Source: a virus (lineage: Duplodnaviria; Heunggongvirae; Uroviricota; Caudoviricetes). Taken from it: a stretch of DNA of 64,000 bases. The stretch's first letter is position 1, and the number at the start of each line of letters is the position of its first letter. Where the stretch lies: positions 1 to 64,000 of IMG/VR virus record IMGVR_UViG_3300007734_000754; one strand, given 5' to 3'. The notes beneath the pieces were generated by a model that saw nothing but the letters and a program-made list of their open reading frames with translations, was not told where the DNA came from and ran no database searches. A program made the position numbers and the translations under genes. Positions 20,667 through 38,850 of this stretch are shown here, one piece after another.

Positions 20667-20710
20667 AGTTGCTAGAACGAATCTTTGTTCGTATATTTAG
20701 GTATTAACAA
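20667..20710 (+). promoter_or_regulatory. first copy of the repeated Bacteroidota-type promoter cassette
   Basis: agTTGctag, about 20-nt spacer, then cgTATATTTAGGTAT. ATG 22 nt downstream. Confidence 0.55.
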
Positions 20711-20726
20711 TTAAAACATCTAGATT

Positions 20727-20942
20727 ATGTTACTAAAAAATTTAAAAAAGGCTCTAAAAGGAAGTGGATTAGTTGTATTAGATTGGAGAAAAAATCATTA
20801 CACTATTACTAAAAAAGGTTTTCAAGGAGGAGGTAGTTGTCCTAGTTTAGCACAGGTAGACAAGGAAACAGGTATTGTAAGCTGTATTACAGATGCTGAA
20901 GGAAGATATGAAATTTTATATACTTTACAAAGTTTATTATAG
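20727..20942 (+). CDS. hypothetical small protein (cassette gene)
   Basis: Own promoter. Followed by the gttgcctcttcggaggcaa terminator. Confidence 0.45.
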   Translation: MLLKNLKKALKGSGLVVLDWRKNHYTITKKGFQGGGSCPSLAQVDKETGIVSCITDAEGRYEILYTLQSLL

Positions 20943-21007
20943 AAAAGTTGCCTCTTCGGAGGCAATTTCTTATATTTAGGCATAGTAATCAATTAAATTA
21001 ATCAGTT

Positions 21008-21277
21008 ATGTTTTTATTTATCATTCTTTATTTCGGAATAAATTTCTTGTCAGCAGTTGGATACGGAGGTATCTTTCGTATTAATTCAGATAGAAAGCTT
21101 TTTTGGTATTTCTGGCTTACAGCTTTAATTCCTATCGTATTATTTTTTACAGCTATAAATATAATGGCTGAGCTTATTACAACAGTATTTATTTATCAAG
21201 TAGTAGGAATACTTTTATACTTAGGTGAATGTTTTAAATATAAAAAAGAGCAAGAAACAGAGAGAGAAAGTTGGTAG
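21008..21277 (+). CDS. small membrane protein
   Basis: Three hydrophobic segments. Confidence 0.4.
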   Translation: MFLFIILYFGINFLSAVGYGGIFRINSDRKLFWYFWLTALIPIVLFFTAINIMAELITTVFIYQVVGILLYLGECFKYKKEQETERESW

Positions 21278-21304
21278 ATTGAATCTTTATTCTTATATTT
21301 AGGC

Positions 21305-21619
21305 ATGGAAAAAACAGGACATACAGCAAAAAAATCATATGACTTTAATACTTCAGGAGTATTAGAAGTATGTATCAAAGGTAATTGGTATAGAACTACA
21401 TCAAATGAATTCAGATCATTCGACGGTAGTAGGAGAATAACTGAGCCGGTTAAACAGCCAGGACTAGGAGAGAGCTTTGATGATGTAGAATTTAAAACTT
21501 ATGACTATAATGGTCCAGTTTATATTCTTCAAACAAATCTAGAGGTAACTAGAATGGATACAGAGACAATTGTAACTAATCCAAAAATGCCTACATATAA
21601 AAAAATCATTAGTAAATAG
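21305..21619 (+). CDS. hypothetical protein
   Basis: ATG abuts the -7 box. Start or promoter assignment is uncertain. Confidence 0.35.
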   Translation: MEKTGHTAKKSYDFNTSGVLEVCIKGNWYRTTSNEFRSFDGSRRITEPVKQPGLGESFDDVEFKTYDYNGPVYILQTNLEVTRMDTETIVTNPKMPTYKKIISK

Positions 21620-21628
21620 TAATCACAT

Positions 21629-21931
21629 ATGAAAAAACTACAAATAGAATCTATAGCGGAGTTAGAGACTATCTTTAAAGAGAAGTCGGTAGATATGACA
21701 ACTAATATAAAGAATAGTATTCAAGAAGCTTTTACTAAGAAAAAAAAGACAGCTATACTATTTGAAATAGAAGTTGATGGAATGGATACTTCCTTCGAGA
21801 TATCTATAACAGTTAAAGAATGGATAGTAGCTTTAGAGAATTGTTTAAAACATTTCGAAGAATGGGAGATGGGAGATGATGCTATTGATACTTATTTATT
21901 GATTAAGGAACTAAAAGAGAAAGCACTATGA
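21629..21931 (+). CDS. hypothetical protein
   Basis: ORF in an operon-like run. Confidence 0.4.
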   Translation: MKKLQIESIAELETIFKEKSVDMTTNIKNSIQEAFTKKKKTAILFEIEVDGMDTSFEISITVKEWIVALENCLKHFEEWEMGDDAIDTYLLIKELKEKAL

Positions 21932-22179
21932 ATAAAATGATATCAGTATTTACTTGTGAGCATACTGGAATTGTTACCACATATACCTATAGGGGGAGTA
22001 ATATATCAACAGGTATAGAAAAAGCTGAGTTTGAATATCCTAAAGGATATATAGAGCAGTTTAGTAAAGAACAAAAGAGATCTAGTAACTTACCTAAGAC
22101 AAAACAAATGTTCTTAAATCCTAAGACAGGTAAAGAAGTAAGTTACTATAGAGCTAAAACTTTAGGGTTAGTAAAATAA
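21928..22179 (+). CDS. hypothetical protein
   Basis: ATGA overlap with the upstream gene. Confidence 0.4.
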   Translation: MNKMISVFTCEHTGIVTTYTYRGSNISTGIEKAEFEYPKGYIEQFSKEQKRSSNLPKTKQMFLNPKTGKEVSYYRAKTLGLVK

Positions 22180-22262
22180 ATTAAAAAAAGTTTGTGAATT
22201 AGTTGCTAGTATGAATTATTATTCATATATTTAGGTAAGTTAATCAATTAAAACAATCAGTT

Positions 22263-23087
22263 ATGTTATCAAAATTCAACACAGGTTTAGATTCTTACCT
22301 TACAAAAGATCAAGTTAGAGCTTTAGCACCAGTAGCATTCGCTACAGAGCCAACTAGTAACAAAGTGAGTGACAAGTACTTACATGTTAACACAGAAACA
22401 ATCATCGACGACTTAGCACAGTTAGGATGGTTACCGGTAACAGCCTCTCAAAGAAAGGCTAGAAAGTCTGATAAGACTACAATCTTCTCCAAGCACATGG
22501 TATCATTTCAAAATCCAGATCTTATGATTAAAGGTAAGAATGGTGATGATGCTTTCCCAAGAATCATTCTAACGAACTCTCATGATGGATTTAATTCATT
22601 CCAGTTCAGAGTTGGTATCTACAGATTAGTCTGTTCAAATGGACTTGTAGTAGCTGACGAAGAATTCTCAGCATTTAGAATCCGTCACAAAGGATATACC
22701 TTTGAAGAATTAAGAGGTGTAGTATCTCAAGCAGTAGCTGATCTTCCAAATAAGGTACAGATCTTAAATCAAATGCAGTTAAGAGAATTAACTCCTGTAG
22801 AGCAAAGACAATTAGCTATCGATGCTATGCAATTGAGAACAAATAGAATCGATGCTGAATGGGATGAAGAAACAATCCAAGACGTTTTAACTCCTACAAG
22901 AGATGCTGATAAAGGAAATGACCTTTGGAAAGTATTTAATGTAATCCAAGAGAAGATTACCCAAGGAGGATACTCAGCAGCATTGAATGGTGCTAAAGTA
23001 AGAAAGGTTAGAAAGATTAAATCATTCGAGAAAGATCTAGAAGTTAATCAAAAGCTATTCAAGTTAGCAACAGCATTAATCAACTAA
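22263..23087 (+). CDS. DUF932-like phage/plasmid protein
   Basis: ILTNSHDGFNSFQFRVGIYRLVCSNG resembles the conserved core of the DUF932/TIGR03299 family. Confidence 0.35.
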   Translation: MLSKFNTGLDSYLTKDQVRALAPVAFATEPTSNKVSDKYLHVNTETIIDDLAQLGWLPVTASQRKARKSDKTTIFSKHMVSFQNPDLMIKGKNGDDAFPRIILTNSHDGFNSFQFRVGIYRLVCSNGLVVADEEFSAFRIRHKGYTFEELRGVVSQAVADLPNKVQILNQMQLRELTPVEQRQLAIDAMQLRTNRIDAEWDEETIQDVLTPTRDADKGNDLWKVFNVIQEKITQGGYSAALNGAKVRKVRKIKSFEKDLEVNQKLFKLATALIN

Positions 23088-23326
23088 TGGATAGAGCTAA
23101 ATACATAGAGATGAGAAAACTAGGCCAGTATGATCTGGCCTGGTTCTACCAATACTACCTGGAGCATAAGGATACCAATAGAGATACTTATCCCTTTGAA
23201 GTCTTTCAACAAGCATTCAATATGTACTTTCAATTTGCTGGAAAGTTTATTATAGAGTACCTAGACAAGAAAATGGAAGTAACAAAAATAGAAAATGAAC
23301 AAGGAAACTTATTATACATAAATTAA
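23087..23326 (+). CDS. hypothetical protein
   Basis: ATGG overlap. Confidence 0.4.
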   Translation: MDRAKYIEMRKLGQYDLAWFYQYYLEHKDTNRDTYPFEVFQQAFNMYFQFAGKFIIEYLDKKMEVTKIENEQGNLLYIN

Positions 23327-23328
23327 AC

Positions 23329-23568
23329 ATGGACGGAAAAGTAAAAACACCAAAGGAATTGATGGCAGACTTGAATGGAAATTATATTCAAGTAATTAAA
23401 AAAAATGGAAAGACTCATGACAGGTTATTTAAAGATCCTCAGAGAGCAATCAGAGCAGTTGGAGGAGTAGATAATGTAAAATACCTAAGAGAGGTATTAA
23501 AAGAACAAGTCAATTCGAAGTACACAGAAGTAGATTCATTAACAGGAACACCAGAAAACGAATTATAG
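23329..23568 (+). CDS. hypothetical protein
   Basis: ORF only. Confidence 0.4.
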   Translation: MDGKVKTPKELMADLNGNYIQVIKKNGKTHDRLFKDPQRAIRAVGGVDNVKYLREVLKEQVNSKYTEVDSLTGTPENEL

Positions 23569-23570
23569 TT

Positions 23571-23768
23571 ATGGAAAGATTAGGAGCAGTATTATCAGCA
23601 ATAGTATTACTTGCAATAGCAGCAATTATACTAGCATGGCCAACACAATTACTTTGGAACAATGCTTTAGTAGGAGCAGTGAATGGAATCAATCCAATAG
23701 GATTTTGGCAAGCATTAGGAATTAATCTTTTGTTTGGAATATTATTTAAGAATTCAAATAGCAAGTAA
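23571..23768 (+). CDS. small membrane protein
   Basis: Two TM helices. Confidence 0.4.
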   Translation: MERLGAVLSAIVLLAIAAIILAWPTQLLWNNALVGAVNGINPIGFWQALGINLLFGILFKNSNSK

Positions 23769-23769
23769 G

Positions 23770-23994
23770 ATGAAAGTAGTAATTAAAATTTTAGCAATAT
23801 TCTTGTTAGTAGCAGGATTAGCACAGCTAATAGATTTATCATTCTATTTGATGAATCAATCAGACACATATGTATTCTATTTAGGAATTGTATCATTAGC
23901 AGCAACATTTGTTGCATTTGGATTCTTAGGATTATATGCAACTAAGTTAATAACACCGGAAGACATTAAATCAACTAAAAAAGAAGAATTATGA
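23770..23994 (+). CDS. small membrane protein (internal ATG chosen)
   Basis: Two TM helices. Track ORF 23734..23994 overlaps the previous ORF. Confidence 0.4.
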   Translation: MKVVIKILAIFLLVAGLAQLIDLSFYLMNQSDTYVFYLGIVSLAATFVAFGFLGLYATKLITPEDIKSTKKEEL

Positions 23995-24362
23995 TATTTT
24001 TAATAGTTTTAGTAGCATTTGCAGCATTTGCTTGGGTAATAGCTGAATTATTTTTATTCTGTGAAGAAGGAACACCTCCTAAAGATTCAGATGTATTGGA
24101 AATGCTTGAGAAGTATAGTAATCAGTATAATAGCATTAGAGAGAATTATAGTAATAGCTATTACATTCAAGCTAGATCAAATTACCAGGTTAAAGAGATT
24201 CATAAAACCAAGTATAGTTTATTATTTCCTTATTACATTAGCGGTGTAGGAGTTATTCCAGTATGGTATAAATCAGCATCTCAAATAGAAACTTTATTTA
24301 AGGAATTGATAAAAGGTTCTGAGTTTGAAAATAAAAAGAGAAAAAAATTAGGATTAGATTAA
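23991..24362 (+). CDS. membrane-anchored hypothetical protein
   Basis: N-terminal TM. ATGA overlap. Confidence 0.4.
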   Translation: MIFLIVLVAFAAFAWVIAELFLFCEEGTPPKDSDVLEMLEKYSNQYNSIRENYSNSYYIQARSNYQVKEIHKTKYSLLFPYYISGVGVIPVWYKSASQIETLFKELIKGSEFENKKRKKLGLD

Positions 24363-24410
24363 AAAAGTTCGTATATTAATAAAAACAAAAATAAATTTAA
24401 AAATCAAGTT

Positions 24411-25250
24411 ATGAAGAAAATTTTAGTTATCGTAGCAGTAGTAGTAGGTATTTTCGCAATGTTTAGTTCATGCGATGTAATCAATGCCGGACACGTAGGA
24501 GTAAAAGTTGATATGTATGGCTCAGGTAAAGGAGTACAGAACGTAACAGCATGTACAGGATGGGTATTTTATAACCCTATCACAACAAAGGTTTATGAGT
24601 TTCCAACTTATATCCAGCATAAGGAGTATAAGAAGACAGAAGATGGAGATAATTCATTCACTGTAAATACTAAGGATGGTTCTGAGTTTAGAGTATCGCC
24701 AATACTAAATTACTCTGTTAATCCAGACAAAGCACCTTCAATCTTTGCAAAATATAGAAGAACGTTACCAGAGTTAGAGGAAGGATTCTTAAAGACAGCA
24801 ATATATGATGCATTCAGATTAGCAACAAATAAGTATACAGCAGAGGAATTAATATCTAATAGAGCAGTATTTGAAGTAGAAGTAAGACGATTGTTATCAA
24901 ATCAAATTACTAAAGAAGGATTTCTCGTTAATCAATTTACATCTAATCTAGAATACCCAGCTTCATTTAAGAATGCCATTAACGCTAAGAATAATGCAGT
25001 ACAAGCCGCGTTAACAGCCGAGAATCAGGTACAAACGGCAACAGCACAAGCTAAGATTAAAGTAGCAACTGCCCAAGGTAATGCCGAAGCATTATTGACA
25101 AATGCAAGAGCTGAGGCTGAGTCAAATAAATTAAGACAGTCTACATTAACAGCAATGCTATTGCAACAACAATGGATTGAGAAGTGGGATGGTGCTTTAC
25201 CAAAGACACAATTGGCATCAGGATCTAATACGATGTACGGCTTAAAGTAA
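24411..25250 (+). CDS. SPFH/band-7 (prohibitin-like) lipoprotein
   Basis: Lipoprotein signal MKKILVIVAVVVGIFAMFSSC followed by SPFH-like sequence (GHVGVKV...). C-terminal Ala/Gln-rich coiled coil. Confidence 0.55.
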   Translation: MKKILVIVAVVVGIFAMFSSCDVINAGHVGVKVDMYGSGKGVQNVTACTGWVFYNPITTKVYEFPTYIQHKEYKKTEDGDNSFTVNTKDGSEFRVSPILNYSVNPDKAPSIFAKYRRTLPELEEGFLKTAIYDAFRLATNKYTAEELISNRAVFEVEVRRLLSNQITKEGFLVNQFTSNLEYPASFKNAINAKNNAVQAALTAENQVQTATAQAKIKVATAQGNAEALLTNARAEAESNKLRQSTLTAMLLQQQWIEKWDGALPKTQLASGSNTMYGLK

Positions 25251-25337
25251 AAATAAATTGAAAATAATTGTAAAAAGGCTTGCTTTGGTAGGCCTTTTTT
25301 CATATATTTAGGTATAGAAATTAAAAAGAGAAAGATT

Positions 25338-26072
25338 ATGCCAAAAATATTTAAAGTAGGAGGATGTGTTAGAGATGGACTTCTAGGAGTAAAGACAAAA
25401 GATATCGACTTCACATTTGTATTAGAGGACCTAAACAAAACAGTTGAAGAAGGATTCAAAGAGATGGAACAATGGATGATAGATCAAGGATTTATAATCT
25501 TTCAATCAGTTCCAGAGATGTTTACAATCAGAGCTAAATTTCCAAGTGATCATAAATTTGCTAAATTGGATGCTGACTTTGTAATGGCTAGAAAAGAAGT
25601 CGGATACGTAGAAGGAACAAGACGTCCAATACTAGAATTAGGAACATTGGAAGATGATTTAGTTCGTAGAGACTTCACAGTCAATGCAATGGCTGAAGAT
25701 GAGGATGGAAATCTAATTGATTTATTTGATGGTATGTGGGCTTTAGAAAATAAGATGCTTCTCACACCTCTTGATCCAGCACAGACATTCTTAGATGATC
25801 CTTTAAGAATGCTAAGAGCACTTAGATTTTCAATCACTAAAGGATTTATAATAGCTCCTAAGGTTTGGGCAGCGATGTTTATTCCAACTCTAATTAATAA
25901 ATTGGAGGAGGTAGTAAGCGGAGAGAGAATAAGAGAGGAAGTTATAAAGATGATGAAAGCAGATACTGTAGCAACTCTACGACTATTGGCTGAAATTGAT
26001 AAAATAGAGCCTAGATTTGTAGAGGCTATATTTGGAAAAGAGATGTGGTTAAAACCAACATTCGAAAACTAG
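25338..26072 (+). CDS. CCA-adding/poly(A) polymerase-family nucleotidyltransferase, head-neck only
   Basis: KVGGCVRDGLLGVKTKDIDF matches the GGxVRDxLLG...DxD head motif. RDFTVNAMA...LID and DPLRMLRALRF match the neck motifs. At 244 aa it lacks the tRNA-binding body/tail. Confidence 0.65.
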   Translation: MPKIFKVGGCVRDGLLGVKTKDIDFTFVLEDLNKTVEEGFKEMEQWMIDQGFIIFQSVPEMFTIRAKFPSDHKFAKLDADFVMARKEVGYVEGTRRPILELGTLEDDLVRRDFTVNAMAEDEDGNLIDLFDGMWALENKMLLTPLDPAQTFLDDPLRMLRALRFSITKGFIIAPKVWAAMFIPTLINKLEEVVSGERIREEVIKMMKADTVATLRLLAEIDKIEPRFVEAIFGKEMWLKPTFEN

Positions 26073-26139
26073 GTAGTAATACAGTTGCTCTAAAACTCAG
26101 TACTATTTATAATAAATAATAGAACCACAAAATACATAA

Positions 26140-28173: not shown

Positions 28174-28174
28174 T

Positions 28175-32749: not shown

Positions 32750-32830
32750 TTAAAAATAAATGAAGAAAGAGTTGCTAGTTCAATTCTTTCTTCGTATATT
32801 TAGGTATTAATAATTAAAACATATACTATT

Positions 32831-33140: not shown

Positions 33141-33159
33141 AATTAAAACATATAACATT

Positions 33160-33366: not shown

Positions 33367-33432
33367 AAAATAGTTGCTCGTTTAAATTATAGTTCGTATA
33401 TTTAGGTATCAATAATTAAAACAATATAAACT

Positions 33433-33726
33433 ATGGGTTATTCAAGTATGTTATTAGGTAAAGGTTTTAACCAACCTTATCGTTCTGTAAATGAAATTGT
33501 CGAATTTTTAATCGATAATCCATTTCGAACAGAATCTGAAATTCAAGAACAAGTTTTTAGCTATTACAGAACTTCAACTTGGGAATCAAACAAGAAATAT
33601 GCCGACATGTTAAGACGAGGTCTTGACAAAGGTCTGTATAAGAGAATTCTATGGAAAACTAAATCCGATAGTAGAAGTCTATACCGTTATTATGTTCCAA
33701 CTTCTGTTAAAAATAATTTAAAATAA
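33433..33726 (+). CDS. hypothetical protein (cassette gene)
   Basis: Own promoter. Confidence 0.45.
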   Translation: MGYSSMLLGKGFNQPYRSVNEIVEFLIDNPFRTESEIQEQVFSYYRTSTWESNKKYADMLRRGLDKGLYKRILWKTKSDSRSLYRYYVPTSVKNNLK

Positions 33727-33787
33727 AGTTGCTCGTTTAAATTATAATTCGTATATTTAGGTATCAATAATTAAAACATATAAAAAC

Positions 33788-34057
33788 ATGAGTTTATTAT
33801 CTACTGCAAAACAAATTTTAATTGACGGGGCTATTGAATTGTATGAAATGAGAAGATCTGATTTAGATTTAGATGTTCTTTCATATCAAAATCATTATTC
33901 AAATTTAGGAGCTATTATTTTTCAAATCGATAAATATGAATCTCTCGGAGATATCATAAACGATATGGAAAAGGATAATCTTCAGGAATTGGGATATTTC
34001 GGAGGAGATGATTTTTTACTTGATGAATTCTTGAAAAAAGTTAGGGAAAATGTTTAA
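33788..34057 (+). CDS. hypothetical acidic protein (cassette gene)
   Basis: Own promoter. Confidence 0.45.
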   Translation: MSLLSTAKQILIDGAIELYEMRRSDLDLDVLSYQNHYSNLGAIIFQIDKYESLGDIINDMEKDNLQELGYFGGDDFLLDEFLKKVRENV

Positions 34058-34122
34058 AAAAAAGTTGCCTCTTCGGAGGCAATTTCTTATCTTTAGGTAT
34101 CGATAATTAAAACATATAAAAG

Positions 34123-34329
34123 ATGAAAGTATTTTTATACAATGCAAAGACGGGAGAGTCTAAACTTTCCGGAGCAGATCAAAATGGTAAAGTTTATCAA
34201 GGTTATTTAGCCGAAGGATTTGAACCCTTAGCTCTTATTCATGGGTTTAGTGTTACTACTTATCCTTATACCAATGAAATGAATAAGGCTTGGTTTGAAG
34301 AAAAAAGTTGTGATTTTATTAAAAAATAG
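34123..34329 (+). CDS. hypothetical protein (cassette gene)
   Basis: Own promoter. Confidence 0.45.
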   Translation: MKVFLYNAKTGESKLSGADQNGKVYQGYLAEGFEPLALIHGFSVTTYPYTNEMNKAWFEEKSCDFIKK

Positions 34330-34388
34330 TTGCTAGTTTAAATTATAATTCGTATATTTAGGTATTAATAATTAAAACATATAAAATC

Positions 34389-34595
34389 ATGAAAAGTCAA
34401 GCAGTACAATTATTAGAGAATACAAATTATCTAGAAACAGTAATCGAAGAATGTAAAGGACAAGAGTCAGAAGAGCAGTTATATACTATCTTTGAGTATC
34501 TAAATGATCTAGACAATTATCAATTAGGAAATTCCTATTCAGCATTGATGAAGCATGCAAAGACAGTTCAAAATTATATTAAAAAGAATTGTTAA
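34389..34595 (+). CDS. hypothetical protein (cassette gene)
   Basis: Own promoter. Confidence 0.45.
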   Translation: MKSQAVQLLENTNYLETVIEECKGQESEEQLYTIFEYLNDLDNYQLGNSYSALMKHAKTVQNYIKKNC

Positions 34596-34659
34596 AAAAG
34601 TTGGTACCTAAGTATAAAGTTCGTATATTTAGGTATCAATAATTAAAACATATAAAATC

Positions 34660-34956
34660 ATGGCTAAAAAAACTTATCAGGACACGGACGGAACGTCATT
34701 TAACGGAGTAACAATTCGAGCAACAGTTGAGCAATTAACAAATGCTTTTGGAGATCCAACTATGGATTCAAATTGGGGAGATGATAAAGTGAATTTCGAA
34801 TGGGAGATGGAAACTGATGAAGGGGAAGTATTTACAATTTACGATTGGAAGGAAGGTCGTCCTTTGAGATTGGATGAATACATTACATGGCATATTGGGG
34901 CAAGGAGTAAATCTGTTGCAAATGATGCTGAGAGAGAAATATTGAAAAAACTTTAA
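34660..34956 (+). CDS. hypothetical protein (cassette gene)
   Basis: Own promoter. Terminator ggccc-ttcg-gggcc follows. Confidence 0.45.
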   Translation: MAKKTYQDTDGTSFNGVTIRATVEQLTNAFGDPTMDSNWGDDKVNFEWEMETDEGEVFTIYDWKEGRPLRLDEYITWHIGARSKSVANDAEREILKKL

Positions 34957-35023
34957 AAAAGGGTTGGCCCTTCGGGGCCTTTTTCTTATCTTTAGGTATC
35001 AATAATTAAAAACAGCAAATAAT

Positions 35024-35167
35024 ATGAAACGTAATTTCACACCAAAAAGAATTTTCAGAGATCATTTTATTATGATACATTCATTCAAAATATTAGGAGT
35101 TTATATTCCTTTATTGATTACTTATTTTAACTTTGGTAAGCGTTACTATTTTAACTTAAAAAAATAA
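35024..35167 (+). CDS. 47-aa small protein (absent from track)
   Basis: ATG at canonical distance from the cassette promoter at 34985. Confidence 0.3.
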   Translation: MKRNFTPKRIFRDHFIMIHSFKILGVYIPLLITYFNFGKRYYFNLKK

Positions 35168-35172
35168 TGTTA

Positions 35173-35298
35173 TGGAAAATCAAGAAAGATTTTACGAGTG
35201 GATGTTAGCGATGGGGAATATTCATTTGGCTAGTAATGAAAAAATGGCTAAAGCATATGAAGCAATTGCTAAGAGTGATGCTAAAATAAATAAAAAAT
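35173..35298 (+). CDS. 41-aa small protein (absent from track)
   Basis: Second short ORF in the same transcription unit. Confidence 0.25.
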
Positions 35299-35371
35299 AA
35301 TTGTTAAAATAGTTGCTAGTTTAAATTAATGTTCGTATATTTAGGTATCAATAATTAAAACATATAACATT

Positions 35372-36154
35372 ATGACAAGATTAAATTTATTAGAGGATCA
35401 AAAAGCAATCCTTACAGCTCAAAAAGAAGTATTAGAAAACAAAAGAGGAGACATCTATGTAAGAGAGCAAAAAGCAATCTCAGATGCTTTGCTTCCTTTC
35501 TTCTCAGATTTTCCTAAAGAAGTAGAAGTTGAAGTAGTAAGAGGGTCTGTTTACTTTAAAATGGATCATCCAGAAGTAAAGTACAAGAAAGAATTATTCA
35601 ATCTTTATTTAAGAGAGGATTATGATTTCGAGAATAGTAAGAAGTCTTATAAGGGAGTTGATTTATCTTACTATACAACTTCAACAAGAGGAGTTGATGA
35701 GTGGGAGTTAAGAAGATTAAGAATGCTAGGAGATTTAGCAGATATTGTTTTGAAAGAACAAGACAATATAGTTGATGCTGCAAATAATGCTGTTGAATCT
35801 TTCAAAGCAGAATATGCTGAGGTGTATAAGGAAATGCAAGAAATTGGAAGTGAGATTAGAGGAGTTGATCAATTGATTGCTTTCTTAGAAAAAGAAAAAA
35901 TTGAATGGGATTTGAAAGATGAAGGAGTAGAGTTTAATACAGGAATGGGTATTCAATTAAAGTATAATTATACTCCAGTTGTAGTATGGGTTAAATTAAC
36001 TGATGTTTCTAAATCAGGAAAGAAAGGTACTGCAGTCTTTAAATGGGCTCATGGAGGAAGTGAATCTAGAGAAGAAAATATAAATGTTAGTTCCATAATT
36101 GATCAAGTTCATGGAAGACGTAAAAGCATTATTCAGCAAACTTTAGCTGAATAG
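35372..36154 (+). CDS. hypothetical protein (largest cassette gene, 260 aa)
   Basis: Own promoter. Terminator gggctcc-gttata-ggggcc follows. Confidence 0.45.
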   Translation: MTRLNLLEDQKAILTAQKEVLENKRGDIYVREQKAISDALLPFFSDFPKEVEVEVVRGSVYFKMDHPEVKYKKELFNLYLREDYDFENSKKSYKGVDLSYYTTSTRGVDEWELRRLRMLGDLADIVLKEQDNIVDAANNAVESFKAEYAEVYKEMQEIGSEIRGVDQLIAFLEKEKIEWDLKDEGVEFNTGMGIQLKYNYTPVVVWVKLTDVSKSGKKGTAVFKWAHGGSESREENINVSSIIDQVHGRRKSIIQQTLAE

Positions 36155-36284
36155 TTTTTAATTATTGATCGAAGAAAGGGCTCCGTTATAGGGGCCTTTT
36201 TGGGTTAAAATAGTTTGTAAAATAGTTGCTAGTTACAATCTTTATTCGTATATTTAGGTATCAATAATTAAAACATATAACATT

Positions 36285-36470
36285 ATGCAAATAGAAGATT
36301 TAAGAGGACAAGAGTTTATTCATTTCAAAGATGATTCAATTATCTACATTGTAGGTAAAAGTAAAGATGGTAGATGTATTATTCATTGGAAGGGTGAAGC
36401 AGATACAGCCGTCTATAGAGATGAGCAAGTAGTTGATTTTTTCGAAAGAGAAATTTGGATCCTATACTAG
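36285..36470 (+). CDS. hypothetical protein (cassette gene)
   Basis: Own promoter. Confidence 0.4.
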   Translation: MQIEDLRGQEFIHFKDDSIIYIVGKSKDGRCIIHWKGEADTAVYRDEQVVDFFEREIWILY

Positions 36471-36564
36471 CCTCAGAAACATTGCTAAAAATAGTTAATA
36501 AAAAAGTTGCTAGTTACAAAGTTAGTTCGTATATTTAGGTATCAATAATTAAAACATATAAAAA

Positions 36565-36810
36565 ATGAAAAATTTAGTAGAAGTTAATTTAAGGGATGTT
36601 AAAGAAGAAGTTACTTATTTAGTTCATGTAAGTGAATATGAACGATATGGAGATAATGAAACTTATTTGTTAAAAGGAAATGGAAAGGAAGTTTTAGAGT
36701 ATATAAAGGATAGGGTTGGATTTGATGATGATGAAGATGAAGATTTATTTACTTGGTTTGATGAGAGTAATGGGGATGGGGATGATTTAATTAGTATTTT
36801 TGAAGTGTAA
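36565..36810 (+). CDS. small highly acidic protein (DNA-mimic candidate)
   Basis: C-terminal half is FDDDEDEDLFTWFDESNGDGDDL. Confidence 0.4.
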   Translation: MKNLVEVNLRDVKEEVTYLVHVSEYERYGDNETYLLKGNGKEVLEYIKDRVGFDDDEDEDLFTWFDESNGDGDDLISIFEV

Positions 36811-36896
36811 AATTAATTAAAAAAAGATTGGGAATTAGTTGTTAGTTCCCTTTCTTTTTACTATCTTTAGGTATCAATAATTAAAACATATACATC

Positions 36897-37193
36897 ATGT
36901 CAAAAGAAAAAACATTTATTATCGAATCAGCTAGATCAGGAGGATTTATGTCTTCAAGACCAACAAGGTATTCTTATGCAGAAGGTACTCTAGAATATCT
37001 TATAGGGTATCATAGTTATACTTTAGAGTGTGGTGCTTCATGGCAGCATGAAAGAGGGAATAAGAAGGTAAATTGTAATCCAAAGACAGCAGCAGGCTTA
37101 GTTAAGAGCTTAAACATTGCTACAAACAACTCTGCTGCTAATGGATATTCAGGAACTTCCTATCAATTAGTTACAGAAAAAAGATCAGAATAA
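36897..37193 (+). CDS. hypothetical protein (cassette gene)
   Basis: Own promoter. Confidence 0.45.
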   Translation: MSKEKTFIIESARSGGFMSSRPTRYSYAEGTLEYLIGYHSYTLECGASWQHERGNKKVNCNPKTAAGLVKSLNIATNNSAANGYSGTSYQLVTEKRSE

Positions 37194-37256
37194 AGTTGCT
37201 CAATTGAATTAAATTTCTTATCTTTAGGTATCAATAATTAAAAATAGTAAATCATT

Positions 37257-37403
37257 ATGAAAAAATTATCACTACAACAAACAGCAAACATCCTTAAAGT
37301 AGTAGTAATTATTGCTTGGATAGTATTAATGAACTCTTTAACTTCATGTGGATCAGCTTGTAGCAGAACACATCGTTATTGGAACACACATAGATGTGTA
37401 TAA
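37257..37403 (+). CDS. 48-aa membrane-anchored Cys-containing peptide (absent from track)
   Basis: MKKLSLQQTANILKVVVIIAWIVLMNSLTSCGSACSRTHRYWNTHRCV. Canonical promoter at 37215. Confidence 0.3.
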   Translation: MKKLSLQQTANILKVVVIIAWIVLMNSLTSCGSACSRTHRYWNTHRCV

Positions 37404-37495
37404 AAAAAAGTTTAAAAAAAAGTTGCTAGTTACAATTATAGTTCGTATATTTAGGTATCAAAATTAATTAATCAATAATTAAAAACAAAAAAATC

Positions 37496-37843
37496 ATGAC
37501 AAAAAATCAAACAGTGGACTTATTAAAAAGTCAAATGCCAGGATTCTATTCTGTAGAACAAGTTATTAATCTTATTGAAAAGATTGAAGAAGGATCAAGT
37601 AGAAAAATTACTACTGATGATATTGAAAGAGCAATTGATAAAACAATCAGTTGGATTGAAAACAATGAAAGAGATATAGTTGATTTAGATTCAGCTGAAT
37701 TTGAATTAAGTTACAATAATCATTTAGAGTGTGTTGGAGTTCCAATTAATACAGATGGAATTAGAGAAGCTTTAGAAAATAACTTCATGGATTTTGGAGA
37801 AGCAGAAGAAGTAGAAGAAGAAAAAGCTGAAAATGAATTGTAA
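37496..37843 (+). CDS. acidic protein (cassette gene)
   Basis: C-terminal EAEEVEEEKAENEL. Confidence 0.45.
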   Translation: MTKNQTVDLLKSQMPGFYSVEQVINLIEKIEEGSSRKITTDDIERAIDKTISWIENNERDIVDLDSAEFELSYNNHLECVGVPINTDGIREALENNFMDFGEAEEVEEEKAENEL

Positions 37844-37910
37844 AGAAAGTTGCCTCTTCGGAGGCTTTTTCTTATCTTTAGGTATCATTAATAATTAAAA
37901 CATCTACATC

Positions 37911-38111
37911 ATGAAAGAGTTTTTCCAAGCACAGTTTAAAATGTTGGACAGAGGATTAGTAGCAACTCCAAACACAAGAGAAGATCTTGAAGCGTTTGCT
38001 AAAGCCAATAATGGTTCAATGGACATCTTACTAATGCAAATGGCTATCAACTATGGTTACAAGATAGCATTAGAGAATGTTCAAGAGGAGTTGGAGAAGG
38101 AGGTAGCATAA
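37911..38111 (+). CDS. hypothetical protein
   Basis: Own promoter. Followed by an overlapping gene. Confidence 0.45.
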   Translation: MKEFFQAQFKMLDRGLVATPNTREDLEAFAKANNGSMDILLMQMAINYGYKIALENVQEELEKEVA

Positions 38112-38338
38112 TGGCAGAGTATGATTTAAGAGGTAGCTGGACAAAGAAGCCCAAAGAGGCTTCTAAGTCCTTCTCTCCAATGATTGGAATGGTCTATGAG
38201 GGTAAGGATAAGTTCTTTGGTAAGATGGTGCTAGGTATCTTAATCGAGATGTTTGATCAGAACGATGAAGCAGTCCTAAGATGTAGAGGAGGAGTATTAG
38301 TCTCAGTCGATAAAAAAAGTTTAAAAATAGTTGCCTAA
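38111..38338 (+). CDS. hypothetical protein
   Basis: ATGG overlap with the upstream gene. Confidence 0.4.
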   Translation: MAEYDLRGSWTKKPKEASKSFSPMIGMVYEGKDKFFGKMVLGILIEMFDQNDEAVLRCRGGVLVSVDKKSLKIVA

Positions 38339-38389
38339 TTGAATAAAGGTTCGTATATTTAGGTATCAATAATTAAAACATATAACATT

Positions 38390-38662
38390 ATGACAAGAGA
38401 ACAATTTTTAAACGGGACAACATTTAGAGTAGGCTTTTTATCCTACAAAGGAGCAGAGACTTATTCGTACAATGCAAAAGACAACTACATGTCTAAACAA
38501 GTAAGGTCTTCTATAGATGAGAAGATAATCTTAGATGATTATGTTTGTAATGTAACAAAGGTAGGTAGATTAGGATTTGAAGGTTTTGTTCACGTAATGA
38601 AAAAGAAAGTAGTTGTTAAGTATAAGTTTGAAGACTTAGTAGAATTTAAAGAGGGGGTTTAA
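38390..38662 (+). CDS. hypothetical protein (last cassette gene)
   Basis: Own promoter. Stop codon embedded in the terminator hairpin. Confidence 0.45.
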   Translation: MTREQFLNGTTFRVGFLSYKGAETYSYNAKDNYMSKQVRSSIDEKIILDDYVCNVTKVGRLGFEGFVHVMKKKVVVKYKFEDLVEFKEGV

Positions 38663-38685
38663 GCCCCCTTCTTTTTTAATAGGCA
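38649..38685 (+). terminator. intrinsic terminator (ggggg-tttaa-gccccc + T-run)
   Basis: GC stem followed by TTCTTTTTT. Confidence 0.55.
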
Positions 38686-38699
38686 ACTTGTCTAGGAAC

Positions 38700-38850
38700 T
38701 TTTTTTTTCTTATCTTTAGGCCGAGGTCAAGGTGATGTCAAGGTGACAGAAAGTTGACAGTTAATTTCCCTCACGGTGACCGGTATCGGGTTTCGCTGGT
38801 TTGTATGAGAAATCTATTTCTGACGATTTTTGAGGTATAGTAATATATAT
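38700..38850 (+). ncRNA. promoter-driven ORF-less transcript with direct repeats (candidate sRNA or antisense RNA)
   Basis: Canonical -7 box CTTATCTTTAGG is followed not by the usual leader and ATG but by GTCAAGGTGA x2, GTTGACAG, GGTGACCGG. Longest ORF is 11 aa. Convergent with the minus-strand gene. Confidence 0.35.

What the first reader, a model, noticed from the sequence alone, without database searches (positions are those of the whole stretch)
20667..38720. About 18-kb array of around 30 monocistronic terminator-promoter-leader-small-ORF cassettes
A conserved element of about 60 nt recurs before nearly every gene in this segment: terminator hairpin, AGTTGC, about 20 nt, TTCGTATnTTTAGGTATCAATAATTAAAACATATAAnATnATG. 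Both the promoter and the 25-nt leader between the -7 box and the ATG are conserved. That implies a common translational signal or a binding site for a phage RNA- or DNA-binding regulator, beyond the -33 TTG / -7 TAnnTTTG architecture of Bacteroidota sigma-A itself. Almost every cassette encodes one 40-130-aa protein of unknown function, several of them membrane peptides or acidic proteins. This is the expected layout for a host-takeover/anti-defence arsenal. Several ORFs under 60 aa with perfect cassettes (28006, 28175, 31882, 35024, 35173, 37257) are absent from the ORF track.
Basis: seen in the sequence. Interest (0 to 1): 0.7.

Follow-up and report, generated by a model that had tools for sequence, protein, structure and literature searches.

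The report
Shuffling promoter-leader cassettes in Flavobacterium phage
A large Flavobacterium phage puts the same ~60-base promoter-plus-leader switch in front of about thirty unrelated small genes, and comparison with sister phages shows these repeated switches are also the seams at which genes are swapped in and out, a Bacteroidota counterpart of the "PeSL" cassettes known from T4-like phages.

Summary
The repeat is real. A 66-nt matrix finds 30 copies, all between 19,458 and 39,634, 29 of them on the + strand, and none in shuffles. Only 21 canonical copies (30,688-38,358) give roughly one promoter per small ORF. The 20.7-30.1 kb part has about 7 degenerate copies heading operons. Only 11 of 30 copies carry a terminator hairpin.

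The window is a relative of Flavobacterium phage immuto, a 160-kb myovirus with T4-like head genes. The invariant 22-mer occurs in about 40 viral contigs and in essentially no bacterial genome.

Anatomy:
- A-tract
- GTTG
- rigid 20-nt spacer
- TAT[A/C]TTTAGG
- 5'UTR core TATCAATAATTAAAAC
- 8-11 variable nt
- ATG

The leader is G-free and unstructured, with A at -3 and -12 to -14, matching published Flavobacterium translation determinants. It tracks the ATG rather than the promoter, and two antisense non-coding units use the promoter without it.

A 95-98% identical relative differs by nine indels or replacements. Ten of 16 breakpoints lie inside cassettes (P = 5e-6), at variable positions, and one cassette is a clear chimera.

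Verdict: PeSL-like promoter(-terminator)-leader cassettes that both express and shuffle ORFan genes. This is a new variant of a known kind. The "anti-defence arsenal" reading is untested.

The parts
19429..20668 (+). Unit 1. Variant cassette (TTTAGG at 19458, non-canonical leader), DksA-like ORF 19489-19896, then HNH ORF 19897-20556 and 42-aa ORF 20540-20668.
   Evidence: PWM 32.8 bits. Orthologues are annotated in immuto as DnaK suppressor protein and HNH endonuclease. The 42-aa ORF is conserved at 78-88% in relatives.
20667..20942 (+). Unit 2. Near-canonical cassette (TTTAGG 20696) and 71-aa ORF 20727-20942.
   Evidence: PWM 67.6 bits. The unit is absent at this place in L063, where the crossover falls in the -7 box. 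An 82% identical copy sits elsewhere in L063.
20946..21277 (+). Unit 3. Cassette with GCCTCTTCGGAGGC hairpin overlapping the -33 box (TTTAGG 20975), class-2 leader, and 89-aa ORF 21008-21277.
   Evidence: PWM 30.7 bits. Hairpin dG -15.0 kcal/mol.
21269..22179 (+). Unit 4. Promoter-only cassette (TTTAGG 21298) abutting the ATG at 21305, then three ORFs: 21305-21619, 21629-21931 and 21928-22179.
   Evidence: PWM 16.2 bits. Sequence shown. The ORFs are conserved in immuto.
22201..25250 (+). Unit 5. Class-2-leader cassette (TTTAGG 22230) heading an operon-like run: DUF932 ORF 22263-23087, several small ORFs, and SPFH/Band-7 ORF 24411-25250.
   Evidence: PWM 20.1 bits. Pfam hits to DUF932 and Band_7. 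23778-26102 is missing from L063 and is not cassette-bounded.
25278..27417 (+). Unit 6. Hairpin plus promoter (TTTAGG 25307), nucleotidyltransferase-like ORF 25338-26072 and 425-aa ORF 26140-27417.
   Evidence: Hairpin dG -16.6 kcal/mol. Pfam PolyA_pol and a PHROG tRNA nucleotidyltransferase family.
27445..27935 (+). Unit 7. Hairpin cassette with TTTAAG (27474) and 143-aa ORF 27504-27935.
   Evidence: PWM 36.6 bits. Hairpin dG -12.3 kcal/mol.
27946..30126 (+). Unit 8. Hairpin cassette with TTTAAG (27975), 55-aa ORF 28006-28173, then about 8 tightly packed or overlapping ORFs up to 30126. These include a conserved membrane peptide starting at 28176 and MGS-like ORF 29489-29869.
   Evidence: PWM 34.3 bits. 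Hairpin dG -14.5 kcal/mol. The peptide MIHAIVG... is conserved in 4 relatives. Pfam MGS.
30659..30925 (+). Unit 9. Cassette with truncated leader (TTTAGG 30688, ATG 22 nt later) and 71-aa ORF 30710-30925.
   Evidence: PWM 61.8 bits. The ORF family has 6 members in relatives.
31374..31829 (+). Unit 10. Canonical cassette (TTTAGG 31403) and 131-aa ORF 31434-31829.
   Evidence: PWM 62.3 bits. The whole unit is absent from L063, whose cassette is a chimera of this cassette's 5' part and the next cassette's 3' part.
31821..32058 (+). Unit 11. Canonical cassette (TTTAGG 31850), whose hairpin has lost its 5' arm, and 58-aa ORF 31882-32058.
   Evidence: PWM 72.5 bits. The ORF is conserved at 49-54% aa in L018 and L036.
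32062..32416 (+). Unit 12. Hairpin cassette (GCCTCTTCGGAGGC, TTTAGG 32091), long variant leader, and 94-aa ORF 32132-32416.
   Evidence: PWM 53.5 bits. Hairpin dG -16.0 kcal/mol.
32433..32749 (+). Unit 13. Cassette with the -33 box in the loop of a GGAGA/TCTCC hairpin (TTTAGG 32462) and 85-aa ORF 32492-32749.
   Evidence: PWM 57.3 bits. Hairpin dG -17.3 kcal/mol.
32770..33088 (+). Unit 14. Hairpin cassette (TTTAGG 32799) and 85-aa ORF 32831-33088.
   Evidence: PWM 73.2 bits. Hairpin dG -18.2 kcal/mol. One WYL_2 hit was found among the 28 ORFs; the L063 orthologue of this ORF carries PF10902.
33099..33366 (+). Unit 15. Canonical cassette (TTTAGG 33128) and 68-aa ORF 33160-33366.
   Evidence: PWM 73.4 bits. 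Together with unit 16 it is replaced in L063 by another gene. The left junction is at the -33/spacer boundary.
33372..33726 (+). Unit 16. Canonical cassette (TTTAGG 33401) and 97-aa ORF 33433-33726.
   Evidence: PWM 74.6 bits. Orthologue in immuto at 73% aa.
33727..34057 (+). Unit 17. Canonical cassette (TTTAGG 33756) and 89-aa acidic ORF 33788-34057.
   Evidence: PWM 79.0 bits. The right junction of the L063 replacement falls in its -7 box. The gene sits at a different place in L009.
34063..34329 (+). Unit 18. Hairpin cassette (TTTAGG 34092) and 68-aa ORF 34123-34329.
   Evidence: PWM 78.0 bits. Hairpin dG -14.3 kcal/mol. 34115-35157 is absent from L063, with the junction inside this leader after AAAAC.
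34328..34595 (+). Unit 19. Canonical cassette (TTTAGG 34357) and 68-aa ORF 34389-34595.
   Evidence: PWM 78.4 bits.
34599..34956 (+). Unit 20. Canonical cassette (TTTAGG 34628) and 98-aa ORF 34660-34956.
   Evidence: PWM 72.3 bits. The ORF family has 14 members. Homology blocks with immuto start and end at cassettes.
34962..35300 (+). Unit 21. Hairpin cassette (GGCCCTTCGGGGCC, TTTAGG 34991), 47-aa orphan ORF 35024-35167 and coupled 42-aa ORF 35172-35300.
   Evidence: PWM 65.7 bits. Hairpin dG -14.3 kcal/mol. The 42-aa ORF is conserved in >=10 relatives at 52-81% aa. 35024 has no homologue, and its 3' end overlaps a leader remnant.
35311..36154 (+). Unit 22. Canonical cassette (TTTAGG 35340) and 260-aa ORF 35372-36154, followed by a separate terminator-like hairpin at about 36178-36200.
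   Evidence: PWM 80.4 bits. Orthologues at 39-74% aa keep the leader exactly while the spacer diverges. 604 metagenomic homologues and no known fold.
36224..36470 (+). Unit 23. Canonical cassette (TTTAGG 36253) and 61-aa ORF 36285-36470.
   Evidence: PWM 79.6 bits. Units 23-24 are replaced by other genes in L063, with the left junction in this leader.
36505..36810 (+). Unit 24. Canonical cassette (TTTAGG 36534) and 81-aa acidic ORF 36565-36810.
   Evidence: PWM 79.7 bits. The gene occupies different positions in L045, L055 and L057.
36837..37193 (+). Unit 25. Cassette with the -33 box in the loop of a GGGAA/TTCCC hairpin (TTTAGG 36866) and 98-aa ORF 36897-37193.
   Evidence: PWM 67.8 bits. Hairpin dG -16.5 kcal/mol. 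The right junction of the L063 replacement is in its -7 box.
37194..37403 (+). Unit 26. Canonical cassette (TTTAGG 37223) and 48-aa membrane or lipoprotein-like ORF 37257-37403.
   Evidence: PWM 65.7 bits. Homologue in L020 at 53% aa. KD19 hydropathy maximum 2.07.
37421..37843 (+). Unit 27. Cassette with a 14-nt insertion in the leader (TTTAGG 37450, ATG 46 nt later) and 115-aa acidic ORF 37496-37843.
   Evidence: PWM 59.0 bits. The AATTAAAA element is still at -17 to -19 from the ATG in 11 orthologues.
37848..38338 (+). Unit 28. Hairpin cassette (GCCTCTTCGGAGGC, TTTAGG 37877), 66-aa ORF 37911-38111 and coupled 75-aa ORF 38111-38338.
   Evidence: PWM 57.2 bits. Hairpin dG -13.6 kcal/mol. Both ORFs are conserved in immuto.
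38329..38670 (+). Unit 29. Canonical cassette (TTTAGG 38358), 90-aa ORF 38390-38662 and the closing terminator 38651-38670.
   Evidence: PWM 69.2 bits. This is the largest ORF family, with 34 members. Terminator-like site.
38686..38720 (+). Degraded half-cassette: TTCTTATCTTTAGG with no leader and no ORF.
   Evidence: Sequence shown. It is comparable to the 'degraded PeSLs' described in PMC4122927.
39605..39867 (+). Last variant cassette (TTTAGG 39634) and 66-aa ORF 39667-39867.
   Evidence: PWM 30.6 bits.
31025..31345 (-). Two tandem antisense units. Each has a cassette-type promoter (TTTAGG at 31295 and at 31151, minus strand) but no leader and no ORF. Candidate small RNAs lie at about 31286-31205 and 31142-31025; the second ends in terminator 31051-31027.
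   Evidence: PWM hit at 31151(-), 19.1 bits. Sequence. Terminator. The core GGGGCCUGG-hairpin-CGGAAGAGUAGAC is conserved in 26 relatives, with 3 compensatory pairs.

Best explanation
The segment is the hyperplastic accessory-gene region of an Immutovirus-like Flavobacterium myovirus with T4-like head genes. Each small gene, or short gene group, is headed by a standard composite cassette with these parts in order:
- an A-rich tract
- a -33 box (A)GTTG(C)
- a rigid 20-nt spacer, which in about 40% of copies is itself, or is overlapped by, an intrinsic-terminator hairpin plus T-run
- a -7 box TAT[A/C]TTTAGG
- a ~25-nt 5'UTR whose first 16-18 nt (GGTATCAATAATTAAAAC) are nearly invariant

Inferred mechanism, in three steps:
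1. Host RNA polymerase with the Bacteroidota primary sigma factor starts a few bases after the -7 box, most likely early in infection.
2. The G-free, unstructured, A-rich leader places an A-run 12-15 nt and an A 3 nt before the AUG. It acts as a standard Shine-Dalgarno-independent ribosome-loading region, so any ORF dropped behind it is expressed.
3. The ~30-40 nt conserved core is repeated about 30 times in one orientation. It therefore serves as a homology tract for the phage recombination system. Crossovers between cassettes delete, insert, replace and move whole promoter-ORF units without breaking their neighbours.

Step 3 is shown by comparative data. Steps 1 and 2 are inferred from sequence and published host rules.
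For: Reality and specificity:
- 30 copies in the window against 0 in shuffles, confined to 19.5-39.6 kb.
- In the complete immuto genome, 24 of 28 copies lie in 15 kb, 9.5% of the genome.
- The exact 22-mer occurs in 56 stretches of about 40 viral contigs, but in only one contig among 185,579 species genomes. That contig aligns with this phage region.

Promoter:
- GTTG sits at a fixed position in 336 of 337 copies and TAT[AC]TTTAGG is present in 88%.
- The layout matches the -33/-7 architecture, and the predicted 5'UTR length matches the host median of 24 nt.

Leader and translation:
- A-3 is 95%, A-12 to -14 is 90-95%, and there is almost no G.
- TIR minimum free energy is -1.4 against -6.3 kcal/mol for random windows.
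- These are the positive determinants measured in F. johnsoniae.
- The leader element stays at -17 to -19 from the ATG despite a 14-nt insertion.
- Antisense non-coding units share the promoter through TTTAGGTA but lack the leader.

Selection:
- Orthologous genes at 39-74% aa identity keep the 18-mer with <=1 mismatch while the spacer diverges.

Shuffling:
- The flanked ORFs are unrelated.
- 401 cassette-led ORFs fall into 111 families, 53 of them singletons, with a loose backbone order plus insertions and translocations.
- Homology blocks against immuto and about 40 relatives begin and end at cassettes.
- Against a 95-98% identical relative there are nine events. Ten of 16 breakpoints lie within 45 nt of a cassette core (P = 5e-6). 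One cassette is an explicit chimera, and junctions fall in the spacer, the -7 box or the leader.
- Immuto encodes a RecA/UvsX-type recombinase.

Precedent: PeSL elements.
Against: - There is no expression data: neither the transcription start nor the timing is shown.
- The -7 box carries A instead of the near-invariant host G at -5, with the G shifted one base. Recognition by unmodified host sigma-A is therefore not certain.
- A-richness and lack of structure do not by themselves explain why 16 of 18 leader positions are fixed.
- The 'tracks the ATG' argument rests on a single insertion event inherited by 11 orthologues.
- Spacer similarity does not clearly follow either the upstream or the downstream gene: 0.54 versus 0.50, against a 0.44 background. 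Crossover preference therefore could not be localised statistically.
- BLAST block ends are naturally drawn towards shared repeats.
- Three W-L063 differences (six of the 16 breakpoints) have at least one end outside any cassette. The 2.3-kb block 23778-26102 and the 28761-29859 indel have neither end in a cassette, and the 27935-28545 replacement has only its left end in one.
Confidence: 0.72

Rival explanations
1. The invariant leader is mainly a recognition site for a dedicated trans-acting regulator, not a generic ribosome-loading sequence. Candidates are a phage- or host-encoded RNA-binding protein or nuclease, analogous to T4 RegA or RegB, or a DNA-binding repressor overlapping +1. Such a factor could switch the whole set of cassette genes on or off together. 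This is compatible with the shuffling role.
For: - 16 of 18 leader positions are >=88% conserved over 339 copies. They stay fixed between orthologues whose proteins are only 39-74% identical. This is more than A/U-richness requires.
- The 22-mer is absent from bacterial genomes, so it is not copied from a host 5'UTR.
- A second leader class shares the sub-motif TCAAT..TTAAAA.
Against: - No candidate regulator was identified. The small ORFs have no informative family hits.
- The leader has no clear dyad symmetry (read from the sequence).
- All its compositional features are those known to favour translation in Flavobacterium.
- The conservation may be partly maintained by recombination between copies.
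Confidence: 0.25
2. The cassette promoter is not read by the unmodified host sigma-A holoenzyme. Instead it needs a phage-specified factor, either a phage sigma-like or appropriator protein or a modified RNA polymerase, which recognises the phage-specific TTTAGG(TA) version of the -7 box.
For: - All copies have A at -5 and G at -4. In F. johnsoniae promoters G-5 is nearly invariant.
- The motif is phage-family specific.
- A DksA-like protein heads the region.
Against: - The -33 TTG, the 20-nt spacing, T-12, A-11 and T-8 to T-6 all fit sigma-A.
- No RNA polymerase or sigma factor is credibly annotated in the immuto genome.
- T4-type PeSL promoters also deviate systematically from host consensus yet use host sigma-70.
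Confidence: 0.15
3. The cassettes are simply strong promoters and leaders kept similar by selection for expression. They play no causal part in rearrangements, and indels merely survive best in intergenic DNA, which here happens to consist of cassettes.
For: - Intergenic space in 30.7-38.7 kb is almost entirely cassette sequence. Any viable breakpoint would therefore map there.
- Spacer co-segregation was inconclusive.
Against: - The L063 cassette upstream of the 31882 homologue is an exact 5'/3' chimera of two window cassettes.
- Junctions of several events fall precisely inside the shared -7 box or leader core, with perfect flanking identity. This is the signature of homologous exchange.
- The same gene occurs behind the same core at different array positions in different phages.
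- Recombination between PeSLs was demonstrated experimentally in T4-type phages.
Confidence: 0.12
4. The repeats are a selfish mobile element (MITE-like) or integron-type attachment sites served by a site-specific recombinase.
For: The sequence is repeated, is about 60 nt long, and flanks variable gene cassettes. The authors of the PeSL work drew a formal analogy to integrons.
Against: - All copies are in one orientation and at a fixed distance upstream of an ATG.
- There are no terminal inverted repeats or target duplications visible in the sequence.
- Crossover points vary between events (spacer, -7 box, leader) rather than falling at one fixed site.
- No integrase or transposase is annotated in the region or in immuto.
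Confidence: 0.04

Closest known systems
PeSL (promoter-early stem-loop) regulatory cassettes of T4-type phages (Arbiol, Comeau & Krisch 2010, PMC2839356; Comeau et al. 2014, PMC4122927)
   Same: - Repeated intergenic composite of A/T-rich tract, host-type promoter, stem-loop terminator, ribosome-binding leader and ATG.
- The stem-loop can lie between the two promoter boxes or overlap the upstream box.
- The copies are concentrated in a hyperplastic region full of small ORFans.
- They are found at insertion, deletion and replacement junctions between sister phages.
- Degraded half-copies occur.
- The phage has T4-like head genes and a RecA/UvsX-type recombinase.
   Different: - The promoter is the Bacteroidota -33/-7 type (GTTG-N20-TAnnTTTAGG) instead of sigma-70 -35/-10.
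- There is no Shine-Dalgarno sequence; an 18-nt nearly invariant A/U-rich 5'UTR takes its place.
- Only 23-40% of copies have a stem-loop.
- The host phylum and the phage lineage (Immutovirus, not placed in any family in its taxonomy line) differ.
- Promoter and terminator activity and mini-circles have not been tested here.
Bacteroidota primary-sigma (sigma-A/ABfr) promoters, -33 TTTG / -7 TAnnTTTG (PMC6847099, PMC9723704)
   Same: - TTG at -33.
- Spacing of about 20 nt.
- T-12, A-11, T-8, T-7 and T-6.
- A predicted 5'UTR of about 25 nt, close to the host median of 24 nt.
   Different: - A replaces the near-invariant G at -5, with GG following: TTTAGG in 88% of 337 copies.
- Conservation continues 16-18 nt into the transcript, which is not a feature of host promoters.
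Shine-Dalgarno-independent, 'Kozak-like' translation initiation regions of Flavobacterium (Baez et al. 2019, PMC6847099)
   Same: A at -3, -6, -12 and -13, low secondary structure around the start, and no extra AUG nearby.
   Different: Host TIRs share only a compositional bias. Here a specific sequence is fixed across hundreds of unrelated genes and dozens of phages.
Clusters of strong early promoters in front of small host-takeover genes (T4 early regions, SPO1 host-takeover module); recalled from general knowledge, not tested here
   Same: Many small genes of unknown function, each or nearly each with its own strong host-type promoter, in one orientation.
   Different: For those systems, early timing and host shut-off functions were shown experimentally. 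Here neither timing nor function is known.

Membership tests
PeSL-type regulatory cassette | Repeated, conserved intergenic composite containing a host-type promoter and ending in the translation start of the downstream ORF | tested here: met
   30 copies in the window and 337 unique copies in relatives. The -33 and -7 boxes are at fixed spacing and the ATG lies 30-33 nt after TTTAGG.
PeSL-type regulatory cassette | Stem-loop (terminator/attenuator) within or overlapping the promoter | tested here: inconclusive
   Present in 11 of 30 window copies (dG <= -12, followed by a T-run, overlapping the -33 box or spacer) and in 23% of copies family-wide. The majority have none.
PeSL-type regulatory cassette | Concentrated in hyperplastic regions rich in small ORFans | tested here: met
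   All window copies lie in 19.5-39.6 kb. In immuto, 24 of 28 lie in 15 kb of the 160-kb genome. 25 of 28 ORFs have no PHROG match, and 53 of 111 ORF families are singletons.
PeSL-type regulatory cassette | Located at insertion, deletion or replacement junctions between closely related phages, with chimeric elements | tested here: met
   Ten of 16 breakpoints against L063 lie within 45 nt of a cassette core (P = 5e-6). There is an explicit chimeric cassette. Junctions fall in the spacer, the -7 box or the leader.
PeSL-type regulatory cassette | Demonstrated promoter and terminator activity, and formation of mini-circles by recombination between neighbouring elements | not testable with these tools
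   Needs reporter assays and inverse PCR on infected cells, as in PMC2839356.
PeSL-type regulatory cassette | Carried by a T4-type myovirus | tested here: inconclusive
   The nearest cultured relative has T4-like gp20, gp23, prohead protease and baseplate wedge genes. Its taxonomy line reads Caudoviricetes; Immutovirus, with no family.
Bacteroidota sigma-A promoter | -33 TTG/TTTG and -7 TAnnTTTG separated by about 19-21 nt | tested here: inconclusive
   TTG, the 20-nt spacing and TAnnTTT are met in essentially all copies. The near-invariant G-5 is replaced by A, with G at -4 and -3.
Bacteroidota sigma-A promoter | Transcription start 4-5 nt downstream of the -7 element | not testable with these tools
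   No transcriptome data are available. The predicted start is in GGTAT, giving a 5'UTR of about 25 nt.
Flavobacterium SD-less translation initiation region | A at -3, -6, -12 and -13, no SD, low structure from -20 to +20, and no nearby extra AUG | tested here: met
   A-3 is 95%, A-5/-6 is 71-81%, A-12 to -14 is 90-95%, and G is <=5% at nearly every position from -25 to -1. Mean MFE is -1.4 against -6.3 kcal/mol. The canonical leader contains no ATG.
Integron-like cassette array / MITE | Site-specific recombinase with a fixed crossover site, or terminal inverted repeats with target-site duplications and variable orientation | tested here: not met
   Crossover positions vary between events. All copies are co-oriented and ATG-linked. 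No integrase or transposase is annotated.

The most novel reading that the evidence does not exclude
The 18-nt invariant 5'UTR (GGTATCAATAATTAAAAC) may be more than an A-rich spacer. It could be a dedicated cis-element read by a specific factor. One candidate is ribosomal protein bS1 acting as a high-affinity enhancer in a phylum without Shine-Dalgarno pairing. Another is a phage-encoded RegA/RegB-like protein. Either would give the phage one handle to co-regulate its whole exchangeable accessory-gene set. The phage-specific TTTAGG -7 variant could likewise mark a promoter class tuned to an infection-modified polymerase.
Probability: 0.22. Interest if true: 0.72.

Novelty: new variant of a known kind. 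Interest (0 to 1): 0.5.

Why it matters
- It extends the PeSL idea, in which regulatory cassettes double as recombination linkers, from Proteobacteria-infecting T4-type phages to a Bacteroidota phage group that is widespread in aquatic metagenomes. The mechanism may therefore be general for large lytic phages rather than a T4 peculiarity.
- It gives a natural set of hundreds of unrelated genes behind one fixed 5'UTR in a phylum that lacks Shine-Dalgarno pairing. This is a ready-made test bed for how ribosomes choose start sites there.
- It offers a compact strong promoter/5'UTR part for Flavobacteriia genetics.
- It defines 111 ORF families as an exchangeable accessory pool worth screening for host-takeover or anti-defence activity.

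Tried and rejected
1. tRNA and Rfam scans of the window found nothing.
2. The sigma-70 promoter scan was uninformative, as expected for Bacteroidota: 84 found against 96 expected.
3. Pfam and PHROG searches on 28 small ORFs gave one credible domain (WYL_2) and three uncharacterised PHROGs. The 'anti-defence' reading therefore has no support.
4. The 260-aa core protein has 604 homologues, all hypothetical. Its AlphaFold model is confident (pLDDT 89) but has no PDB fold match, and only one uncharacterised phage protein matches in BFVD.
5. I tested whether the variable spacer travels with the upstream or the downstream gene, to localise crossovers. The result was inconclusive: 0.54 versus 0.50, against a 0.44 background.
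6. Folding the antisense candidate RNAs alone gave weak z-scores of -1.7 and -0.3. Only the alignment gave covariation.
7. I considered complementarity between the antisense RNAs and the common leader. None is visible on reading the sequences.
8. A MITE or integron reading was rejected on orientation, ATG linkage, variable crossover points and the lack of a recombinase.
9. Literature searches for Bacteroidota or Flavobacterium phage promoter arrays returned nothing relevant in the held library. The immuto phages appear only in passing mentions.

Full report
**What the window is.** The 20-40 kb part of the window matches only Flavobacterium phage vB_FspM_immuto (160 kb, genus Immutovirus) in the phage collection. 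The match is patchy, at about 83% identity. Immuto carries T4-like gp20, gp23, prohead protease and baseplate wedge genes and a RecA-type recombinase, and has no credibly annotated RNA polymerase or sigma factor. In the window, the finding lies between a glycosyltransferase block and baseplate/tail genes.

**Checking the observation.**
- The 20-mer TAGGTATCAATAATTAAAAC occurs 17 times at <=3 mismatches, against 0.02 expected, and always on the + strand.
- A 66-nt matrix built from 22 copies finds 30 sites above 15 bits. All lie between 19,458 and 39,634, 29 are on the + strand, and 20 shuffles gave none.
- A strict pattern, GTTG-N17-21-TAnnTTTA[GA], hits 28 times on the + strand in 20.6-39.6 kb and nowhere else on that strand.

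The repeat is therefore real. Its distribution is uneven:
- 21 canonical copies lie between 30,688 and 38,358 and serve 23 ORFs.
- 20.7-30.1 kb holds about 7 degenerate copies with other leaders. These head runs of 2-9 packed ORFs, including DUF932, SPFH/Band-7, a nucleotidyltransferase and an MGS-like protein.

Terminator-like hairpins (dG <= -12 kcal/mol plus a T-run) occur in 11 of 30 copies. They either use the -33 box as part of the 5' arm (GTTGCCTCTTCGGAGGCAA) or hold it in the loop (GGGAATTAGTTGTTAGTTCCC). Family-wide the figure is 23% of 337 copies.

- 31882, 35024 and 37257 have canonical cassettes.
- 28006 has a variant cassette.
- 28175 and 35172 have none and are directly coupled to the preceding ORF.
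- Four of the six (31882, the peptide starting at 28176, 35172 and 37257) are conserved as proteins in diverged relatives and so are real genes. 28006 and 35024 are orphans.

**Anatomy.** The consensus reads: A-rich tract, (A)GTTG(C), a 20-nt variable spacer, TAT[A/C]TTTAGG, TAT[C/T]AATAATTAAAAC, 8-11 variable A-rich nt, ATG.
- GTTG is at a fixed position in 336 of 337 unique copies from the window's relatives.
- The ATG is 30-33 nt (mode 32) after TTTAGG.
- The flanked ORFs are unrelated to one another, with 9% mean column identity.
- Two are membrane-like and about eight are acidic.

**Distribution.** The exact 22-mer TTTAGGTATCAATAATTAAAAC is present in 56 stretches of about 40 IMG/VR contigs, several of 150-167 kb. 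Copies are always co-oriented within a locus. Among one genome for each of 185,579 bacterial and archaeal species it occurs in a single 3.3-kb metagenome-bin contig, and that contig aligns with this phage region. It is therefore a signature of a phage lineage, not a borrowed host sequence. In the complete immuto genome, 24 of 28 matrix hits lie in 60.9-76.2 kb.

**Promoter.** The published Flavobacterium promoter has -33 TTG/TTTG and -7 TAnnTTTG at -12 to -5. Starts lie 4-5 nt downstream and the median 5'UTR is 24 nt (PMC9723704; PMC6847099). The cassette fits in its -33 TTG, its spacing, T-12, A-11, T-8 to T-6 and its predicted UTR length. Every copy, however, has A where the host has the near-invariant G-5, followed by GG. 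I rate host sigma-A recognition as likely, since T4-type PeSL promoters also deviate systematically from sigma-70 consensus, but it is unproven.

**Leader.** Relative to the ATG:
- A is 95% at -3, 71-81% at -5/-6, and 90-95% at -12 to -14.
- G is <=5% at nearly every position from -25 to -1.
- The region from -26 to +30 folds at -1.4 kcal/mol on average, against -6.3 for random 56-nt windows.

These are the positive determinants measured by ribosome profiling and reporters in F. johnsoniae, which lacks Shine-Dalgarno pairing.

Two natural controls tie the leader to translation rather than to transcription initiation:
- Two tandem antisense units at 31,025-31,345 use the same promoter through TTTAGGTA and then diverge into a conserved non-coding sequence with no leader.
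- In a gene family whose leader carries a 14-nt insertion, AATTAAAA moves from +13 to +27 relative to TTTAGG but stays at -17 to -19 from the ATG in all 11 orthologues. This is one event, stably inherited.

Purifying selection is evident. Orthologues of the 260-aa ORF with only 39-74% protein identity keep the 18-mer with <=1 mismatch in 14 of 16 cases and <=2 in the rest, while the spacer diverges freely. Over all orthologue sets, 113 of 180 copies have <=1 mismatch. Why a specific sequence is fixed, rather than mere A/U-richness, remains open. A dedicated binding factor is the main rival.

**Shuffling.**
- Against immuto, the shared genes are collinear but interrupted by window-only and immuto-only cassettes, and nucleotide homology blocks begin and end at cassettes.
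- Across 57 related loci, 401 cassette-led ORFs (median 87 aa) form 111 families, 53 of them singletons.
- Gene-order strings show a loose backbone with insertions and replacements, and the same gene at different array positions in different phages.
- The most informative comparison is with contig L063, which is 95-98% identical in shared blocks. Nine differences lie within 20 kb.

Junction alignments against L063 show the following:
- *Gene 20727 indel:* the crossover is in the -7 box.
- *Gene 31434 indel:* the L063 cassette is an exact chimera of the 5' part of window cassette 31403 and the 3' part of cassette 31850.
- *Replacement of 33163-33747:* junctions are at the -33/spacer boundary and in the -7 box.
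- *Four-cassette indel 34115-35157:* the junction is inside the leader after AAAAC.
- *Replacement of 36298-36853:* junctions are in the leader and in the -7 box.

Ten of 16 breakpoints lie within 45 nt of a cassette core, against 13% expected (binomial P = 5e-6). Variable crossover positions point to homologous exchange, not a site-specific recombinase. Other differences, including the 2.3-kb block 23778-26102, are not cassette-bounded. Whether the spacer travels with the upstream or the downstream gene could not be resolved.

**Comparison with what is known.** This is the behaviour described for PeSL elements of T4-type phages. Those are composite early promoter plus stem-loop terminator plus RBS motifs. 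Their stem-loops lie between or overlap the promoter boxes. They are concentrated in hyperplastic ORFan regions and sit at indel and replacement junctions. Degraded half-copies occur, and recombination between neighbours has been demonstrated experimentally (PMC2839356; PMC4122927). The present elements differ in four ways:
- the promoter type (-33/-7, with a TTTAGG variant)
- a fixed SD-less 5'UTR in place of a Shine-Dalgarno site
- the low fraction of copies with stem-loops
- host phylum and phage lineage

Searches of the held literature found no description of such arrays in Bacteroidota phages. That library is incomplete, so this is weak evidence of novelty.

**Gene functions.** Nothing supports or refutes the 'host-takeover/anti-defence' label. 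25 of 28 ORFs match no PHROG and one has a WYL_2 Sm-like domain. The most conserved protein has 604 metagenomic homologues and a confident model, but no known fold. High turnover is compatible with accessory or arms-race functions, but that is inference.

**Verdict.** The best explanation is a set of PeSL-like promoter(-terminator)-leader cassettes that both express and exchange small accessory genes, with confidence about 0.7. This is a new variant of a known kind, of moderate interest.

Noticed in passing
window 31025-31345, minus strand: Two tandem antisense units, each with a cassette-type promoter but no leader and no ORF. Their conserved core is GGGGCCUGG, a hairpin, then CGGAAGAGUAGAC. 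It is present in 26 relatives, and 3 hairpin pairs show compensatory changes. The second unit ends in a strong terminator. Most relatives have one copy; the window and L018 have two. There is no Rfam match. These are candidate phage small RNAs of unknown role.
   Followed up: partly
window 30127-30660: A non-coding stretch with 11 of the window's 14 ACCCGT motifs, arranged as ~22-30-nt imperfect direct repeats (CTAG.TACCC.TTTGTAACCCGT). Further GAGAGA and TCCAGG short repeats extend to about 31050, and GC content is higher here. The stretch is conserved in relatives (L002, L040, L044, L058). It looks like an iteron array, perhaps a replication origin or other protein-binding site.
   Followed up: partly
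window 21269-21307: The promoter copy at 21298 is followed directly by the start codon (TTTAGGCATGG). The predicted transcription start falls on or next to the A of the ATG, making this a candidate leaderless mRNA. The immuto orthologue has a normal leader.
   Followed up: no
window 23778-26102: A 2.3-kb block present in the window but absent from the 97% identical relative L063. It carries an SPFH/Band-7 protein, a CCA-adding/poly(A)-polymerase-type nucleotidyltransferase and small ORFs. Its junctions are not at cassettes. The right junction lies by a different motif, TACTATTTATAATAAATAATAG.
   Followed up: partly
window ~2294-2356 and ~61890-61948: A second terminator-promoter-like composite occurs twice outside the array, in front of genes: GGCTTGTTTTTTCAAGCCTTTTTTCTTATATTATAG. 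It may represent a different (middle or late?) promoter class.
   Followed up: no
window 19489-19896: The first cassette-led gene of the region encodes a DksA-like protein, annotated 'DnaK suppressor protein' in immuto. It is a possible RNA-polymerase secondary-channel binder and so may be relevant to how the phage handles host transcription.
   Followed up: no
window 35024-35171: The 47-aa orphan ORF behind a perfect cassette ends in a sequence resembling a decayed leader (AACTTAAAAAAATAATGTT-ATG), directly before the conserved 42-aa gene. In L063 that gene has its own intact cassette. The orphan ORF may be a by-product of an insertion into a leader rather than a real gene.
   Followed up: partly
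window 38686-39190: A half-cassette (-7 box only, no leader) closes the array. It is followed by about 470 nt of GC-richer sequence, conserved in relatives, that contains a 72-aa minus-strand ORF (38862-39080). L063 also calls a 72-aa minus-strand gene there.
   Followed up: no
L059 (immuto 18.6-37 kb), outside the window: The cultured relative carries a full 7-deazaguanine DNA-modification set (QueC, QueD, QueE, QueF, FolE, DpdA), plus GroES/GroEL and four tRNAs. Four weaker cassette-like promoters lie around the tRNA region at 19.8-25.9 kb.
   Followed up: no
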